A stretch of DNA of 64,000 nt from a virus (taxonomy: Duplodnaviria; Caudoviricetes): positions 32,001-96,000 of IMG/VR virus record IMGVR_UViG_3300025723_000017. One strand, 5' to 3'. The notes beneath the pieces were generated by a model. It made no database searches and was not told where the DNA came from. It saw only the letters and a list, made by a program, of their open reading frames with translations. Below are positions 57,121 through 63,246 of the stretch, one piece after another (positions within the stretch are counted from its first letter, which is position 1; each line of letters starts with the position of its first letter). The position numbers were made by a program, and so were the translations under genes.

Positions 57121-58545
57121 ATGCGTTATTATGAATTCCGTTATCTAATAGAAGGTTATCCACAAGCACAAGCTGCTTTTATACAAGCAGGTGCCGACAC
57201 AGCCTCTGTACAAAAAACTATAGCCGACTTCAAACAATTAGTTACACGCAATCAAATAAAAGACATTAATCAAAAGAACATAGACTGGTGGGCAAAACAA
57301 GGTTGGGATAAGTTTAGCCAATTTGTCAATCAAGCAGCAGCCGTACCCAGTAAATCTCAAATTGAAAAAAAGAAATTACCCGGACAAAGTATTAATTTAG
57401 TTGATAATGCTCAATGGTTTATAGTAATTCCACTTGATAAAGATGCCAGTTGTTTTCATGGGAAAAATTCAGATTGGTGTACTACAAAAGTACATCAAAG
57501 TTATTTTGAACAATATTTTTATAATAGACAAGTAACTCTAATATATTGCTTTAATAAATCAACCGGCGGTATGTGGGCCATAGCCGTACATAAAGACACA
57601 GATAAATTCGAAATGTTTGATCAGAAAGATAGAAGTTTAACAGTAGATGAATTTAAACGACAAACCGGGTTAGATCCTGCTCAACTACGTGATATGGCCT
57701 TAGGTGATGTACATCAACCTAAAGTACAAGCCACACGTGATAAATGGAAAGATTCCAAAGCATTGACTAATAAATTATTGAATGACTTACCAGAAAAAAC
57801 TAGATCATCTGAGATAGAAAAACAATTGCTATATAATAAATCTAGAAATGAATGCCTGAAGTATATTCGCAAGATCGGATCAATTGATTCTAATGATTTT
57901 CCATTGGCAATAGAGATAGCAGCAGTTTCACTAGATAGTCATGCAATACAACATATTAAAAATCCAAAACCTATTGTGCAAAAAACAGCAGTTTCACAAT
58001 ATGGTGGAGCAATACAATATATTATCGAAGCTGGTATTACACCCACGGAAGCAGTACAAATAGCAGCAGTTTCAAATGATGGTAGTGCAATAGTTTATAT
58101 TATCGACGCTGGTATTACGCCTAGTGAAGCGGTACAACGGGCAGCAGTTTCACAATATGGTGGAGCAATACTATATATTATCCGCGCTGGTATTACGCCT
58201 AGTGAAGCGGTACAAAAGGCAGCAGTTTCAAATGATGGTAGTGCAATAGTTTATATTATCGACGCTGGTATTACGCCTAGTGAAGCAGTGCAAATAGCAG
58301 CAGTTTCACAATATGGTGGAGCAATACTATATATTATCCGCGCTGGTATTACGCCCACGGAAGCGGTACAAAAAACAGCAGTTTCACAACTTGGTCGTGT
58401 AATACGATATATTATCGACGCTGGGATTAAACCCACGGAAGCAGTACAAATAGCAGCAGTTTCAAATGATGGGCTTGCAATAGAATTTATTATCGACGCT
58501 GGTATTACGCCCAGTAAAGCGGTAAGGCGAGCGTATTACAGCTAG
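57121..58545 (+). CDS. probable head protein with 26-aa helical repeats (DUF4116-like)
   Basis: TAAATA promoter, MRYYEF start, 'ASC..G....WCT', repeats AVS..G.AI.YII.AGITP.EAVQ. Confidence 0.7.
   Translation: MRYYEFRYLIEGYPQAQAAFIQAGADTASVQKTIADFKQLVTRNQIKDINQKNIDWWAKQGWDKFSQFVNQAAAVPSKSQIEKKKLPGQSINLVDNAQWFIVIPLDKDASCFHGKNSDWCTTKVHQSYFEQYFYNRQVTLIYCFNKSTGGMWAIAVHKDTDKFEMFDQKDRSLTVDEFKRQTGLDPAQLRDMALGDVHQPKVQATRDKWKDSKALTNKLLNDLPEKTRSSEIEKQLLYNKSRNECLKYIRKIGSIDSNDFPLAIEIAAVSLDSHAIQHIKNPKPIVQKTAVSQYGGAIQYIIEAGITPTEAVQIAAVSNDGSAIVYIIDAGITPSEAVQRAAVSQYGGAILYIIRAGITPSEAVQKAAVSNDGSAIVYIIDAGITPSEAVQIAAVSQYGGAILYIIRAGITPTEAVQKTAVSQLGRVIRYIIDAGIKPTEAVQIAAVSNDGLAIEFIIDAGITPSKAVRRAYYS
57986..58530 (+). 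repeat. seven 78-bp coding tandem repeats
   Basis: CAGCAGTTTCA...GGTATTACGCC recurs every 78 bp. Confidence 0.9.
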
Positions 58546-60023: not shown

Positions 60024-60166
60024 CTAAATTACTGTATCTAGATGATACTGTAAGTATGATTCTATACAGTGTGGAGATAGAAAAATTTGTGGCCAAAATT
60101 TTTTGATCAGCTGATTTAAATCCTGATGAAGTTTTTGACCCCTGGGGTCCTACATAGTGGAAGAAG

Positions 60167-60221
60167 ATTGATTTATACGATCCAGGATTGACAAAATTGA
60201 TTTATACGATCCAGGATTGAC
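60167..60221 (+). repeat. 26-bp direct repeat x2
   Basis: ATTGATTTATACGATCCAGGATTGAC at 60167 and 60196. Confidence 0.9.
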
Positions 60222-60296
60222 GCAAAGCTAGTATACATACAATGTATTGTAGCTAAAAAACAACACCGGGGTGTCCGAAGTTTTTGAAATAGCTAA

Positions 60297-60325
60297 ATTA
60301 TAGCATGTAATTTTATAAAATGCAA
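60297..60325 (-). promoter_or_regulatory. sigma70 promoter (GA-free)
   Basis: TTGCAT-17-TATAAT with extended -10 TG. Confidence 0.7.
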
Positions 60326-60355
60326 GCGCATAAAATGCAAGCGCATAAAATGCAC

Positions 60356-60400
60356 GCTGTAACGCATTAGTACAGCGTAGTGTACATAATGCGTTACAGC
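60356..60400 (-). terminator. long hairpin/terminator after the 61028 gene
   Basis: GCTGTAACGCATTA/TAATGCGTTACAGC 14-bp arms plus inner GTACA/TGTAC. Confidence 0.65.
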
Positions 60401-60413
60401 GTGCTTGCTACGC

Positions 60414-61028
60414 TTACAGCGTGCTTGCTACGCTTACAGTTTGCTTGTTAGCTGTAATGCTAACTAAGTTAGCTAGTGCAATAGTGCGCACTTTTACAGT
60501 ATGTAACACGTTGTTAGCTACGTTGTGCGTTACAGCACTTTGCGCTAGCAGTTTGTTGCGTGCGCTAGCAGTTAAGTATTGTGCTACTTGTAGCTTAGTT
60601 GCTAATTGGCCGTTAATAAAATACATACTGCTAGCGTTGTTAAATATAGCGTATAAGTACAGCGCATTAGTTTGCTTGTGCTTAACTATGCTATGTACGT
60701 TAGTGTGTGTAAAATAGTTACTTTGCGTTGTAAAGTTAGCTACGTTGCTAGCGTTGTTAGCTTCAATATTATTTGCACTTTTTTGTACAGCGTTAGCGTA
60801 AACGTTAGTAAATGCGCTAATGTTGCTAAAAAGTTGCACGTTAGCACTAACTACTTTTTTAATGCTAACTAAGTTGTGTTTTGCGCTAGTAGCTACTTGC
60901 GTAACGTAGCATACGTTAGCAAACGTAGTGCTTTTGTTAGCAAGTAATACTTGTATAGTTTGTGCGCTAATTGTGTTAGCGTTAGCGTGTGCTGTAAGTG
61001 CTTGTTGTGCTTGCTGTAAATTTAACAT
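60414..61028 (-). CDS. early protein nearly lacking D/E/G/P/W
   Basis: 204-aa ORF downstream of three tandem promoters; leader AAGCGTAAACAAAAATG shared with the 61645 gene. Confidence 0.8.
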   Translation of the reverse strand: MLNLQQAQQALTAHANANTISAQTIQVLLANKSTTFANVCYVTQVATSAKHNLVSIKKVVSANVQLFSNISAFTNVYANAVQKSANNIEANNASNVANFTTQSNYFTHTNVHSIVKHKQTNALYLYAIFNNASSMYFINGQLATKLQVAQYLTASARNKLLAQSAVTHNVANNVLHTVKVRTIALANLVSITANKQTVSVASTL

Positions 61029-61075
61029 TTTTGTTTACGCTTATAAAATGTGTTTAAGTTGTTTACTGCAACTAA

Positions 61076-61282
61076 ATTATACTGCTAACTGCGCTAATTT
61101 GCAAGTGCTACTTTGTTGCAAAAAAACAACGCTTGCTAACTGCTGTACTGCTTACTATGCAGTAATTATACTGCTAACTGCGCTAATTTGCAAGTGCTAC
61201 TTTGTTGCAAAAAAACAACGCTTGCTAACTGCTGTACTGCTTACTATGCAGTAATTATACTACTTGCGTAGCTAATACGCAA
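61076..61282 (-). promoter_or_regulatory. three sigma70 promoters at 89-bp period
   Basis: TTGCAA/TTGCGT-17-TATAAT at 61076-61104, 61165-61193, 61254-61282; two identical 89-bp units. Confidence 0.85.
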
Positions 61283-61297
61283 GTAGTATTTTGTAAG

Positions 61298-61645
61298 TTA
61301 TGCGCTAGCAAATAAGCGCAACAATACGCTATTGTTGTCCGTTGTTACAATTTGCGCATTGTAACGCTTTGCAATAATTAGCAAGTTAGTGCATACTTGC
61401 GCTTTAGCTACTTTAACTGCTATAAACTTAGCACGCAAGTTAGTATAAACACGCTTAGTAAAATATTGTGCTTGTACTGCTTGCGCTAGTGCTTGCGCTT
61501 GTGCGTGTTGTTCGTTTGTGTACAAGTGCGCATTTTTTGCATTTTGCGCTTGCACTTGTAACACGCTTATATAACGTGCGTGCTTTACAGCGTTGTTTTT
61601 TGTTGTTAAAACAACGTGCGCTACTGCTTGAGGCTTTTTTTGCAT
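61298..61645 (-). CDS. early basic protein nearly lacking D/E/G/P/W
   Basis: 115-aa ORF downstream of two promoters, same leader as the 61028 gene. Confidence 0.75.
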   Translation of the reverse strand: MQKKPQAVAHVVLTTKNNAVKHARYISVLQVQAQNAKNAHLYTNEQHAQAQALAQAVQAQYFTKRVYTNLRAKFIAVKVAKAQVCTNLLIIAKRYNAQIVTTDNNSVLLRLFASA

Positions 61646-61697
61646 TTTGTTTACGCTTTATAAAATGTTGTTAAGCTACTTGTTTACTGCAAGCTAA

Positions 61698-61817
61698 ATT
61701 ATACTGCTAACTGTGCTAATTTGCAAGTGCTATTTTGTTGCACGTTTACAACACTTGCTAACTGCTGTACTGCTGTACTGCAAGCTAAATTATACTGCGC
61801 ATTGTTTTAATTTGCAA
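61698..61817 (-). promoter_or_regulatory. two sigma70 promoters
   Basis: TTGCAA-17-TATAAT at 61698-61726 and 61789-61817. Confidence 0.85.
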
Positions 61818-61854
61818 GTGCTATTTTGTTGCAAAAAAACAACGTAATTAACGC

Positions 61855-61971
61855 TTGCAATTTAGCGCAAACGACTTTACAATGTAGTTGTTGTTAGCAG
61901 TTAGCAGTTAGCAAGTGTTGTTTTTTTGCAACAAAGTAGTGCTTGCAAGTTAGCGCAAAATGCGTTACAAT
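61855..61971 (+). promoter_or_regulatory. two divergent sigma70 promoters
   Basis: TTGCAA-17-TACAAT at 61855-61883 and 61943-61971. Confidence 0.85.
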
Positions 61972-62002
61972 GTAGTTGTTGTTAACAAAAAGGAGCTGTA
62001 CT

Positions 62003-62233
62003 ATGTTAAATAGCACAAACGTTCGTCGCCTAGGCGAGATGGCGGCAGAATTTGGCCTTGATTCTTTTTTCAGCACAATGCGAGTGTTGCATAATTGCGA
62101 CAACAAAGACCAGCTTAATACGCAGGACGAAGCTGTACTGTATAACATAGCAGAGGAAGCTGTGCAATACGTTGTGCAGTATCAAATGTCAGCACTAAAA
62201 GAAGCTTTAGCAGAACTTAACGCTAAAGTGTAA
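62003..62233 (+). CDS. small early protein, paralog of 62322
   Basis: AGGAG SD; V.RL...A.E.GLD.F...M..L...D.K..L shared. Confidence 0.75.
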   Translation: MLNSTNVRRLGEMAAEFGLDSFFSTMRVLHNCDNKDQLNTQDEAVLYNIAEEAVQYVVQYQMSALKEALAELNAKV

Positions 62234-62584: not shown

Positions 62585-63246
62585 TGAAATCTGCAGGCCA
62601 AATTCTGCAGACCAAATTCTAGGATCAAATTTCTCAGGAGAACTACATGGCTTCAGTAGAAGGCAAGACCGTCAAGGTGGGTGACTACGTTTGTTTTAAA
62701 TCAGACTTTGAGCAAACGGGCAAAATTGTCAAAATTAACGGCAATAACTTGACCCTGTTCAGGGATGACGAGGGGTTTGGCGGCGACTACATTGGCGGCG
62801 AGAACTACACAACGGTACACGCCGCCGACTGTTGGATCGATTAGTCCAGGGGCTCAGGCCCCATTTTTTGTTTATTTTCTTGGCCTCAAAATCTAGGATG
62901 AAATTCTCAGAGTCAAATTCCCAGGGTCAAATTCTTGACCCTCATCTCCATTATCAAATCTGCTAGACCAATCTCTCGTCAGCCTCTGACTCCACAGGCG
63001 AAATTCCCAGGGTCAAATCGTCATGGCGAAGGTCATACACAAGGCCAAATCTTTAACGCTACACGACAGAATCCTAACCTTGACATCACCTCTAGCCGTT
63101 GATGTTGGTCTACGAAGTCTAGTTCTGTCTACGACAGGGTCAAATCGTCTCGCCAATATTAAATCCCTGAAGGGATTTTGTAGAATTGACCTTTGCTGTC
63201 AAAGGTCTCGGCTAATGTCTAAGCCTCTGTTTCGCAGGGTCAAATC
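62585..63246 (+). repeat. dispersed degenerate AGGNYCAAATY repeats
   Basis: Runs at ~13-15-bp period at 62585-62638 and 62884-62941; further CAGGGTCAAAT copies at 63008, 63135, 63235. Confidence 0.65.
62647..62844 (+). CDS. small SH3/KOW-like protein
   Basis: AGGAG SD; 'VKVGDYV.F....GKIVKI'. Confidence 0.7.
   Translation: MASVEGKTVKVGDYVCFKSDFEQTGKIVKINGNNLTLFRDDEGFGGDYIGGENYTTVHAADCWID

What the first reader, a model, noticed from the sequence alone, without database searches (positions are those of the whole stretch)
60414..61660. Two proteins written in a reduced amino-acid alphabet with a substitute SD
Seen: the 204-aa protein has 1 E, 1 G and no D/P/W; the 115-aa protein has 1 D, 1 E, 1 P and no G/W. 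Both use the leader AAGCGTAAACAAAA(A)TG instead of AGGAG. Inference: the DNA-level constraint overrides protein sequence, the few retained residues may mark essential sites, and the products are candidates for host takeover or anti-defence.
Basis: partly seen in the sequence, partly recalled or inferred. Interest (0 to 1): 0.75.

Follow-up and report, generated by a model that had tools for sequence, protein, structure and literature searches.

The report
Phage proteins recoded by dinucleotide ban
Two real early genes of an uncultured giant phage have been rewritten by natural selection, promoter, ribosome site and protein included, so that the DNA steps GA, GG, TC and CC almost never occur, which strips five amino acids from proteins whose relatives use them freely and shows that something in the infected cell reads exactly those steps.

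Summary
The 204-aa and 115-aa minus-strand ORFs have the stated compositions and share the leader AAGCGTAAACAAA(A)ATG. Both are real genes: ORFs this long never arose in 1000 simulations, each belongs to a conserved phage family, dN/dS is about 0.2, and both fold confidently.

The reduced alphabet is a by-product of the DNA. A 1705-bp island holds 9 GA/GG/TC/CC steps where about 300 are expected. Synonymous codons, codon junctions and promoters obey the same ban. Most clusters of the 204-aa family have normal composition, and replacements run D>N, E>Q/S/A/T, G>N/K, P>A/K.

In relatives the ban follows the direction of transcription. TC/CC on the message strand is the stricter half. It runs from about 50 nt before the start site to the terminator, and it has been lost several times.

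The Shine-Dalgarno site is missing because it cannot be written. Relatives that allow GA/GG use AAGGAG. The shared leader is a duplicated cassette, and its last 30 nt are conserved in distant relatives.

I favour a DNA-level block to the host polymerase over Rho or an RNA-attacking enzyme. Protein function is unknown; both are very basic, and the larger has a weak Sm/WYL-like resemblance.

This scan had already noted the same phenomenon in other jumbo-phage genomes.

The parts
60287..61991 (.). Island almost free of GA, GG, TC and CC (9 in 1705 bp), holding both genes and all their promoters
   Evidence: unique in the 154-kb contig
60414..61028 (-). Gene for the 204-aa protein (17 amino-acid types, pI 10.1); member of an unnamed phage family of about 190 clusters at 50% identity
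61298..61645 (-). Gene for the 115-aa protein (18 amino-acid types, pI 10.4); second unnamed family, usually found near the first
61029..61072 (-). 5' leader of the 204-aa gene, ending in AAGCGTAAACAAAA before the ATG; no Shine-Dalgarno; no significant structure
61646..61694 (-). 5' leader of the 115-aa gene, ending in AAGCGTAAACAAA before the ATG; last ~30 nt conserved in L018 and L084
61076..61104 (-). Promoter TTGCAA-N17-TATAAT, proximal copy for the 204-aa gene (89-nt cassette)
61165..61193 (-). Second, identical promoter cassette for the 204-aa gene
61257..61289 (.). Perfect 14-bp inverted repeat written without banned steps, directly after the 115-aa gene (3' hairpin)
   Evidence: I15
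61698..61726 (-). Promoter TTGCAA-N17-TATAAT, proximal copy for the 115-aa gene
61789..61817 (-). Outermost minus-strand promoter TTGCAA-N17-TATAAT
61855..61883 (+). Divergent promoter TTGCAA-N17-TACAAT, an inverted copy of the cassette, facing the normal-composition genes from 62004
   Evidence: (I3, D6)
61943..61971 (+). Second divergent promoter, followed by the first AAGGAG (61990) outside the island
60297..60325 (-). Fifth minus-strand promoter copy (TTGCAT-N17-TATAAT) downstream of the 204-aa gene
   Evidence: (D3)
60258..60285 (.). G+C-rich hairpin (ACACC GG GGTGT) with T/A runs on both sides: bidirectional terminator marking the left edge of the island
   Evidence: read directly from the sequence

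Best explanation
Shown. Both ORFs are genuine protein genes of two unnamed phage families, driven by tandem near-consensus sigma-70 promoters. Their 17- and 18-letter alphabets are not something the proteins need. They are the by-product of site-by-site selection that removes GA, GG, TC and CC from the whole transcription unit. That unit runs from about 50 nt upstream of the start site, through promoter, leader and coding region, to the 3' hairpin. Without GA, GG and CC, the codons for Asp, Glu, Gly, Pro and Trp cannot be written. The same holds for TCN Ser codons, the TTGACA -35 box (here TTGCAA) and any Shine-Dalgarno sequence.

Shown in relatives. The ban is aware of strand. Some lineages purge only TC/CC on the message strand, which is the same as G-purine on the copied strand, and this follows gene orientation. 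The window's lineage bans both halves. The ban has been relaxed repeatedly.

Inferred. Translation starts without SD pairing, on an unstructured A/U-rich leader whose last ~30 nt are conserved.

Inferred, about 50%. The ban is read on DNA, in connection with host RNA polymerase, and not only on the message, because it applies with full force to untranscribed promoter spacers and to the -35 box. The version I rate most likely (about 30%) is that G followed by a purine carries a mark or lesion in the infecting DNA. Such a G in the promoter or the copied strand would stop the host polymerase, so the first genes are kept free of those sites.

Protein function is unknown. Both proteins are very basic, and the larger one has a weak Sm/WYL-like barrel resemblance, so nucleic-acid binding is my guess (about 40%).
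For: Real genes: ORF lengths were never reached in 1000 simulations. There are 307 homologues at E<=0.01 and 190 clusters in the exhaustive profile search. Thirty-four columns are invariant among the 26 aligned relatives. dN/dS has a median of 0.21 with dS 1-1.9. pLDDT is 88.9 with pTM 0.82 for the larger protein, and 78.8 for the smaller.

By-product of the DNA: 0 of 198 banned synonymous codons against 35.7 expected, and 3 of 317 junctions against 47. Pooled observed/expected values are GA .12, GG .14, TC .10, CC .11, with no other trinucleotide ban. Of the representatives of 150 aa or more, 105 of 132 have normal composition, and the normal forms are basal in the tree. In recoded genes, 61% of residual exceptions sit at codon positions 1-2, against 31% in normal genes.

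Strand awareness: L057-L060, L058 and L072 have GA 24-35 and GG 14-25 but TC+CC of 0-4. In L060 a minus-strand gene is TC/CC-free on its own sense strand. The 115-aa family shows the same two tiers. Residual exceptions number 115 for G-purine against 70 for pyrimidine-C.

Promoter DNA included: 38 distinct promoter spacers have observed/expected values of .07 (YC) and .12 (GR), against 1.05 and .89 in 65 control promoters of the same genome. Sixteen units whose upstream DNA is normal still have clean promoter cores. The -35 box is TTGCAA or TTGCAT here, against TTGACA or TTGACT elsewhere.

SD: lineages that ban only TC/CC keep AAGGAG. Twelve of 42 recoded leaders break the ban only for GGAG or AGGA.
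Against: No agent has been identified. No DpdA/TGT gene was found in 11 partial related records totalling about 1.2 Mb, and no QueC or thymidylate-synthase-type gene in this contig. All of these records are 8-45% complete.

Phage CAjan carries proven dPreQ0 at GA and GGC, yet it has no such island. A known guanine modification therefore does not by itself force this recoding.

About 65 other consensus sigma-70 promoters in the same genome drive genes of normal composition. A general block to the host polymerase would have to spare them or delay their use.

Tandem promoters are common, so part of the promoter DNA is also transcribed. Early timing and translation are inferred, not measured. The fold matches are weak: Z of 6.5 or less, and no Foldseek hit in the PDB.
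Confidence: 0.5

Rival explanations
1. Rho evasion at the RNA level. Rho's primary sites grip 5'-YC dinucleotides, so a message without UC or CC cannot load Rho and is transcribed to the end even when translated poorly.
For: The stricter and more widespread half of the ban is exactly TC/CC on the message strand, and it follows gene orientation. YC recognition by Rho is established (PMC12360218; PMC13323073). Rho avoidance is published as a force shaping coding-strand composition in Bacilli (PMC13323073). The genes here lack an SD, so their RNA would be exposed. The best, though weak, fold match of the 204-aa protein is the Rho inhibitor YaeO/Rof (Z 6.5).
Against: It does not explain the GA/GG ban on the same strand. 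It does not explain the ban in untranscribed promoter spacers or the rewritten -35 box. Rho needs several YC steps and acts quantitatively, whereas here single sites are purged at the cost of invariant Gly and Pro residues. Other early genes of the same phage are unconstrained.
Confidence: 0.2
2. Escape from an enzyme that attacks single-stranded RNA at dinucleotides, either an ADP-ribosyltransferase like CmdT or an endoribonuclease, host- or phage-encoded. These few messages must stay translatable while the others are hit.
For: CmdT modifies adenine in GA of single-stranded RNA and blocks translation (PMC11618068). That is a single-hit reader of one of the four banned steps. The near-absolute purge fits a single-hit attack. 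SD sites, which are covered by the ribosome, are the commonest tolerated exceptions. Repeated loss of the ban fits an arms race. The phage itself encodes a DNA/RNA non-specific endonuclease.
Against: I know of no enzyme that reads UC/CC, which is the stricter half. Two readers would be needed. It fails to explain the promoter DNA. The phage's endonuclease gene was not found in five related partial genomes.
Confidence: 0.15
3. A pyrimidine-C-specific single-strand DNA cytosine deaminase, or a similar lesion-maker, acts on DNA opened by very strong transcription. The most heavily transcribed units evolved to offer it no targets.
For: The reading is strand-aware and tied to transcription units with stacked strong promoters. 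TC and CC are the classic contexts of such deaminases (my own knowledge of APOBEC-type enzymes and DddA). D>N and G>N/K/S fit G-to-A changes.
Against: Cytosine is not depleted: C is 20-25% of the sense strand, and AC and GC are enriched. E>K is only 3%, and Pro goes to Ala or Lys, not Leu or Ser. Replacement therefore followed protein fitness, not a mutation path. The spacer and -35 box are not single-stranded.
Confidence: 0.07
4. The proteins themselves are selected to lack acidic residues, Gly, Pro and Trp, for example as extremely basic nucleic-acid binders, and the DNA pattern follows from that.
For: Both proteins are very basic, with pI above 10 and net charge +12 and +13.
Against: Synonymous codons, codon junctions, UTRs and promoters obey the same ban. 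Most family members have normal composition and the same predicted fold family. One tier of relatives keeps D, E and G and loses only what TC/CC encode.
Confidence: 0.02
5. The ORFs are chance open frames in non-coding, low-complexity regulatory DNA that cannot contain TGA.
For: TGA and TCA are impossible in the island, so both strands carry longer open frames than usual. The plus strand has Cys-rich ORFs of 66-108 aa.
Against: Frames of 204 and 115 codons never occurred in 1000 composition-matched simulations. There are hundreds of homologues with dN/dS near 0.2, including normal-composition ones, and confident folds.
Confidence: 0.01

Closest known systems
Rho avoidance through coding-strand composition (purine bias of genes in Bacilli; Nat Microbiol 2026, PMC13323073), and the 5'-YC specificity of Rho's primary binding site (PMC12360218)
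   Same: Selection on the message strand against pyrimidine-C. It constrains codon usage, follows gene orientation, and matters most when transcription outruns translation.
   Different: The published effect is genome-wide and quantitative. Here the ban is near-absolute, confined to a few transcription units, also removes GA/GG, rewrites amino acids, and extends into untranscribed promoter DNA.
CmdTAC defence: CmdT ADP-ribosylates adenine in GA dinucleotides of single-stranded RNA (Nature 2024, PMC11618068)
   Same: A proven reader of one of the four banned dinucleotides, in which one hit on an mRNA blocks translation.
   Different: It reads GA only. It is triggered late by capsid protein. No GA-free escape genes have been reported. 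It does not explain TC/CC, GG or the promoter DNA.
Motif-specific 7-deazaguanine DNA modification by phage DpdA: CAjan at GA and GGC (PMC7544227); iggy at GA only (PMC10484667)
   Same: The only known phage DNA modification whose target is G followed by a purine. It would leave the island unmodified on both strands.
   Different: No DpdA or preQ0 genes were found in the 11 partial records searched. CAjan shows no GA/GG-free island. Those modifications are known as anti-restriction marks, not as blocks to transcription.
Dinucleotide suppression in eukaryotic viruses (CpG versus ZAP, UpA versus RNase L, TC depletion as an APOBEC3 footprint); my own knowledge, review PMC8420353 listed
   Same: A virus removes a two-letter step that a host factor reads, including at synonymous sites.
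   Different: Those cases are partial, genome-wide biases. This case is an almost complete purge of four steps in single transcription units, and it reduces proteins to 15-18 amino-acid types.
Restriction-site-free first-entering DNA of T5 and T7 (my own knowledge)
   Same: The earliest expressed region of a phage is kept free of sequences that would be attacked before counter-measures are made.
   Different: Palindromic sites such as GCGC, AGCT, GTAC and GCTAGC are abundant in this island. The ban concerns dinucleotide steps and is strand-aware.
Sm-like and WYL small beta-barrel proteins (Rof/YaeO 6jie, PafBC, BrxR, CapW, DriD, Hfq; phage WYL_2 PF10902)
   Same: Part of the 204-aa model superposes on these barrels, with Z 5-6.5 over 58-85 residues. 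An ESM Atlas structural neighbour is a phage WYL_2 cluster.
   Different: There is no sequence or profile match to any Pfam, PHROG or PDB entry. The Z values lie in the range of common arrangements. The protein is 200 aa with extra helices and strands.

Membership tests
Shine-Dalgarno-led bacterial genes | GGAGG-like purine tract 5-10 nt upstream of the start codon | tested here: not met
   There is no GG or GA in either leader. The neighbouring gene at 62004 has AAGGAG. Relatives that ban only TC/CC have AAGGAG.
Rho-avoiding transcripts | Depletion of UC/CC on the message strand, following gene orientation | tested here: met
   Sense-strand TC and CC have observed/expected values of .10 and .11. 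Orientation is followed in L060.
Rho-avoiding transcripts | Constraint confined to transcribed RNA, with no requirement on the opposite strand | tested here: not met
   Promoter spacers and -35 boxes are purged. GA and GG are also purged on the message strand.
DpdA-type 7-deazaguanine DNA modification system | Phage-encoded DpdA (TGT family, PF01702) and preQ0 synthesis genes | tested here: inconclusive
   There is no PF01702 match in the window's contig or in 10 related records, and no QueC in this contig. All records are fragments, 8-45% complete.
DpdA-type 7-deazaguanine DNA modification system | Modified phages keep their early units free of the GA/GG target | tested here: not met
   CAjan, 59.7 kb: no 300-nt window on the strand read has fewer than about 12 GA+GG or TC+CC, and its longest run free of GA/TC is 81 nt.
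DpdA-type 7-deazaguanine DNA modification system | Modified bases present in virion DNA | not testable with these tools
   This needs LC-MS or raw long-read signal from phage DNA.
Escape from CmdT-like RNA ADP-ribosylation | GA depleted in the single-stranded message | tested here: met
   GA has an observed/expected value of .12 on the sense strand. GG, TC and CC are depleted equally, which CmdT does not explain.
WYL / Sm-like barrel proteins (204-aa protein) | Five-stranded bent beta-barrel superposable on Sm/WYL domains | tested here: inconclusive
   VIA-align gives Z 6.5 for 6jie_A (69 residues, rmsd 2.4) and Z 5.0-5.8 for WYL domains. An ESM Atlas neighbour is WYL_2, TM .65 over 84 aa. Foldseek finds nothing in the PDB.
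WYL / Sm-like barrel proteins (204-aa protein) | Sequence-profile membership (Pfam WYL or WYL_2) | tested here: not met
   There is no Pfam hit for 32 family members at E<=0.1-1, and no PDB profile hit.
Rof/YaeO Rho inhibitors | Binding to Rho's N-terminal domain and inhibition of termination | not testable with these tools
   The only evidence is the weak fold match.

The most novel reading that the evidence does not exclude
The infecting genome of this phage clade carries an undescribed strand-blocking mark or lesion on G followed by a purine. It is not DpdA-type. It makes most of the DNA unreadable to the host RNA polymerase at first. The few units written without those steps are then the only immediate-early genes. 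Their very basic products, the 204-aa and 115-aa proteins, would be the switch that unlocks the rest of the genome. As a side effect, nature has produced folded 200-residue proteins built from only 15 amino-acid types.
Probability: 0.2. Interest if true: 0.92.

Novelty: new variant of a known kind. Interest (0 to 1): 0.8.

Why it matters
First, this is a natural experiment in reduced protein alphabets. One family holds both ordinary members and members built from 15-17 amino-acid types: no Asp, Glu, Gly, Pro or Trp in 5 locus proteins and in 13 of 120 database homologues. The recoded members are still under purifying selection and are predicted to fold. This gives direct test material for how far a fold tolerates the loss of acidic, turn-forming and aromatic residues.

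Second, the near-absolute, strand-aware purge of four dinucleotides from single transcription units points to a sequence reader in phage-infected cells that has not been identified. It could be a DNA mark, a lesion-maker, Rho, or an RNA-modifying or RNA-cutting enzyme. The pattern tells an experimenter exactly which steps to re-introduce to find it.

Third, it shows that promoter and ribosome-site consensus can both be overridden. TTGACA becomes TTGCAA and the SD is lost, which makes SD-independent initiation on a conserved leader testable.

Fourth, the pattern is a simple computable signature for finding the very first genes of uncultured jumbo phages.

Tried and rejected
1. Chance ORFs: rejected by composition-matched simulations.

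2. Protein-level cause: rejected by synonymous, junction and promoter statistics.

3. General restriction-site avoidance: rejected, because GCGC, AGCT, GTAC, TGCA and GCTAGC are frequent in the island.

4. CRISPR PAM avoidance: rejected on reasoning. A local and strand-specific purge cannot protect a genome that is targetable elsewhere, and several PAMs remain writable.

5. Hypermutation decay: rejected. C is not depleted, and the replacements for E and P do not follow transitions.

6. Known RNA families: nothing below E 0.4 in Rfam.

7. A leader hairpin hiding the start codon: the folds are weak, -3.5 to -6.4 kcal/mol, with z-scores no better than shuffles.

8. Function by homology: there is no Pfam match. 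The only PHROG match is weak (phrog_7986, unknown function, E 0.0096, for the 115-aa protein). PDB sequence and Foldseek-PDB searches found nothing for either protein. BFVD gave only uncharacterised phage proteins. The names JGI gives to two homologues ('ParB-like nuclease', 'YaaR/DUF327') were not reproduced.

9. Cultured relatives: tblastn of the window protein and of a normal-composition homologue against 50,697 phage records found nothing. The window's DNA also has no match there.

10. A co-varying gene: TGT, QueC, thymidylate-synthase type and RegB were not found. The Endonuclease_NS and GT4 glycosyltransferase genes of this contig are not shared convincingly with five related fragments.

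Contexts therefore came from the search for related loci only.
Full report
**What is there.** The window is bases 32001-96000 of a single 154,059-bp viral contig with 38% G+C, which CheckV rates as 45% complete. Pfam matches show a T4-like core: tail-sheath stabiliser gp15, T4-type large terminase, UvsW, a RecA/UvsX-like protein, a DnaB-like helicase and a primase. The contig also carries ribonucleotide reductase, ligase, ClpX and ClpP, UvdE, PhoH, a dNMP kinase, a non-specific DNA/RNA endonuclease and a GT4 'conflict' glycosyltransferase.

At 60287-61991 lies a 1705-bp island with only 9 GA/GG/TC/CC dinucleotides. The genome average is 17.9% of all steps. No other tract of the contig comes close.

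The island contains two minus-strand ORFs, 61028..60414 (204 aa) and 61645..61298 (115 aa). It has five minus-strand promoters of the form TTGCA[AT]-N17-TATAAT, partly as exact 89-nt tandem cassettes. It also has two inverted copies that fire rightwards into normal-composition genes, and the first AAGGAG (61990) marks the island's right edge. A G+C-rich bidirectional terminator (60258-60285) marks the left edge.

**Check of the observation.** The residue counts are exact: E89 and G140 in the larger protein, and P5, E45 and D103 in the smaller. In 1000 first- and second-order Markov simulations of the island, the longest ATG ORF averaged 52-55 codons with a maximum of 154. A second ORF of 115 codons or more never occurred.

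**The genes are real.** The 204-aa protein has 307 database homologues at E<=0.01, all about 200 aa. An exhaustive profile search finds 190 clusters at 50% identity and no fused forms. An alignment of 26 relatives has 34 invariant columns. Pairwise dN/dS among recoded members has a median of 0.21, while dS is 1-1.9. Synonymous sites have therefore turned over completely while both the protein and the ban were kept. AlphaFold gives pLDDT 88.9 and pTM 0.82.

The 115-aa protein has fewer detectable relatives: 8 in the word-indexed search and 14 distinct ones in fetched loci. It usually lies within 1-2 kb of the first family. It folds at pLDDT 78.8 as a disordered N-terminus, a helical hairpin and a small alpha/beta domain.

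**The reduced alphabet is a by-product of the DNA.** Only 3 of 317 codon junctions are forbidden where 47 are expected. Pooled over 12 islands, the sense-strand observed/expected values are GA .12, GG .14, TC .10 and CC .11. No other di- or trinucleotide is excluded.

The family is ordinarily normal in composition: 105 of 132 cluster representatives are normal, 12 are recoded and 3 lack only proline. In a tree rooted on the most distant member, the normal forms are basal and the fully recoded forms make up the crown. Relaxed forms are nested inside that crown; for example, the normal L047 is sister to the recoded L008.

At columns where normal homologues share D, E, G or P, the recoded ones carry these residues:
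- D: N 49%, Q 14%, A 14%.
- E: Q 26%, S 20%, A 19%, T 16%.
- G: N 37%, K 17%.
- P: A 41%, K 20%.

Five locus proteins and 13 of the 120 listed database homologues use exactly 15 amino-acid types.

Residual exceptions in recoded genes number 183 in 7049 codons. Of these, 61% lie at codon positions 1-2, mostly Asp and Glu, against 31% in normal genes. The ban is therefore broken mainly where the protein insists. Of the window's own retained residues, only G140 sits at a Gly that is invariant in normal homologues, and most recoded relatives have Asn there.

**Anatomy of the ban across relatives.** Eighty-four related loci were fetched. In L001 the two genes are separated by normal genes, and each sits in its own clean islet. 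The ban therefore travels with the transcription units.

A metaprofile places its start about 100 nt before the ATG and its end about 60 nt after the stop.

The ban is aware of strand. One lineage (L057-L060, L058, L072) keeps GA at 24-35 and GG at 14-25 per gene, but has TC+CC of 0-4. In L060 three plus-strand genes have no TC or CC at all. A minus-strand gene there, a homologue of window 62647-62844, lacks them on its own sense strand. The 115-aa family shows the same tier in L045 and L071. Even in fully recoded genes, residual G-purine steps (115) outnumber residual pyrimidine-C steps (70). The ban on TC/CC in the message strand, which equals G-purine in the copied strand, is thus the stricter half. 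The ban on GA/GG in the message strand is an addition in the window's lineage.

**The ban reaches untranscribed promoter DNA.** Thirty-eight distinct promoters of recoded units have spacer observed/expected values of .07 (YC) and .12 (GR), at 20% C and 20% G. Sixty-five promoter-like sites elsewhere in this genome have values of 1.05 and .89. Sixteen units whose DNA further upstream is of normal composition still have clean cores, with the boundary 8-35 nt upstream of the -35 box. The -35 box itself is rewritten from TTGACA or TTGACT to TTGCAA, TTGCAT, TTGCAC or TTGCGC. Lineages that ban only TC/CC keep TTGACT or TTGACG.

**The 'substitute SD'.** GGAGG, GAGG and AGGA cannot be written in this lineage. 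Where GA and GG are allowed, the same genes use AAGGAG. In 12 of 42 recoded leaders the ban is broken just for GGAG or AGGA. Among the other 30 leaders, AAG lies 7-13 nt before the ATG in 16, against 5.6 occurrences expected. That is where the 5' part of an SD would sit. The rest are plain A/C-rich leaders.

The two window leaders are about 90% identical over the whole ~90-nt promoter-leader cassette, so their shared motif is a duplication. The last ~30 nt (ACATTTTAWAAAGCGTAAACAWAAA) recur before 115-family genes in L018 and L084, whose proteins are 63% and 34% identical to the window's. The leader is thus better conserved than the protein. The leaders have no significant structure. I read this as SD-independent initiation on an open A/U-rich leader. 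This is inferred.

**What reads the dinucleotides?** This is not shown. Seven facts constrain it:
- It is strand-aware and follows transcription.
- It selects site by site, strongly enough to override invariant residues.
- It covers the promoter.
- It ends at the terminator.
- Only a few units per genome are affected, while about 65 other consensus promoters drive normal genes.
- The trait is gained and lost repeatedly.
- SD sites are tolerated exceptions.

Rho's primary site binds 5'-YC (PMC12360218; PMC13323073), and Rho avoidance is known to shape coding strands. Rho, however, explains neither GA/GG nor the promoter DNA nor the absoluteness of the purge.

CmdT (PMC11618068) shows that a defence enzyme can read GA in mRNA, one hit at a time. 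No reader of UC/CC is known, and the promoter again stays unexplained.

A mark or lesion on G followed by a purine would hurt most in the promoter and the copied strand. It explains both tiers with one reader. The only known such mark is DpdA-type 7-deazaguanine, at GA and GGC (PMC7544227, PMC10484667). I found no TGT-family gene in 11 partial records. Phage CAjan, which carries that mark, has no clean island.

Mutational decay by a deaminase is unlikely, because C is not depleted and the replacements of E and P do not follow transitions.

My ranking is:
- DNA-level reading linked to host RNA polymerase: about 0.5. Within this, a mark or lesion on G-purine is about 0.3.
- Rho: 0.2.
- An RNA-attacking enzyme: 0.15.
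- A single-strand DNA deaminase: 0.07.
- Protein-level selection or chance: 0.03 or less.

**What the proteins do.** This is unknown. Both are strongly basic, with pI 10.1 and 10.4. There is no Pfam match. The only PHROG match is weak (phrog_7986, unknown function, E 0.0096, for the 115-aa protein). There is no PDB-sequence match for the 204-aa family and no Foldseek-PDB match for either protein.

The 204-aa model matches four uncharacterised phage proteins in BFVD at E 2e-7 to 2e-5. It matches Sm-like and WYL barrels weakly in the PDB: YaeO/Rof at Z 6.5, and PafBC, BrxR, CapW, DriD and Hfq at Z 5-5.8. An ESM Atlas structural neighbour is a phage WYL_2 cluster. These values lie within the range of common arrangements. 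Nucleic-acid binding is a guess.

The 115-aa model gives only generic alpha/beta matches at Z 6.6 or below.

**Novelty.** Two searches of the held literature found no description of transcription-unit-scale dinucleotide bans or of such reduced-alphabet phage proteins.

Notes of this scan show that the same phenomenon was seen before in other jumbo-phage genomes, often as a ban on TC/CC only. Those notes gave me the CmdT lead and the paper on purine bias. I tested the Rho, CmdT and deazaguanine readings against my own data as described above.

Noticed in passing
window 60394-60453: A 20-nt tandem repeat (TTACAGCGTGCTTGCTACGC: two exact copies and one diverged) spans the stop codon of the 204-aa gene. 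The window protein ends with three extra residues (STL) beyond the longest relatives, most of which end 3-4 residues earlier.
   Followed up: partly
window 60297-60325 (-): A fifth copy of the minus-strand promoter (TTGCAT-N17-TATAAT) lies downstream of the 204-aa gene and faces the bidirectional terminator about 10 nt away. It could give only a very short RNA, or it may be a decaying cassette.
   Followed up: no
window 61022-61049 and 61639-61666 (+): Promoter-like sites (TTAACA-16-TAAAAT and TTTGCA-16-TAAAAT) lie on the opposite strand, exactly over the two start codons and leaders. The conserved leader might therefore double as an antisense or divergent promoter.
   Followed up: no
window 60164-60221: Two 29-nt direct repeats (AAGATTGATTTATACGATCCAGGATTGAC, 97% alike) lie just outside the island. 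They could be a protein-binding site.
   Followed up: no
L060:1690-2790 and L060:3241-3465: In a related phage, three plus-strand genes of normal Asp/Glu/Gly content have no TC or CC at all. A minus-strand gene, a homologue of window 62647-62844, is TC/CC-free on its own sense strand. The window's copy of that gene is not constrained.
   Followed up: partly
L007:4591-4896; L006:5137-5487; L012:4964-5278: Further small genes written in the reduced alphabet sit next to the 204-aa family in other phages: a 101-aa protein that looks like a winged helix, and a 104-116-aa family. More than two gene families are therefore subject to the ban.
   Followed up: no
L089:3642-4463, L094:14129-15190, L088:11254-11913 (same contig, outside the window): The phage encodes a DNA/RNA non-specific endonuclease (PF01223, E 7e-38), a GT4 'conflict-system' glycosyltransferase (PF20706) and a T4 gp1-like dNMP kinase. 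These are possible hints of nucleic-acid degradation or DNA modification. They are not shared clearly with five related fragments.
   Followed up: partly
window 57121-58545 (+): A 474-aa protein whose C-terminal half is about seven tandem 33-residue repeats (AAVS..G.AI.YII.AGITP.EAVQ.A).
   Followed up: no
table (database contigs): Most database contigs that carry the 204-aa family are only 1-2.5 kb long. Assemblies seem to break around these islands, perhaps at the repeated promoter cassettes.
   Followed up: no
P0054, P0123: JGI names two homologues 'ParB-like nuclease family protein' and 'YaaR (DUF327)'. Pfam scans here do not reproduce either name.
   Followed up: yes
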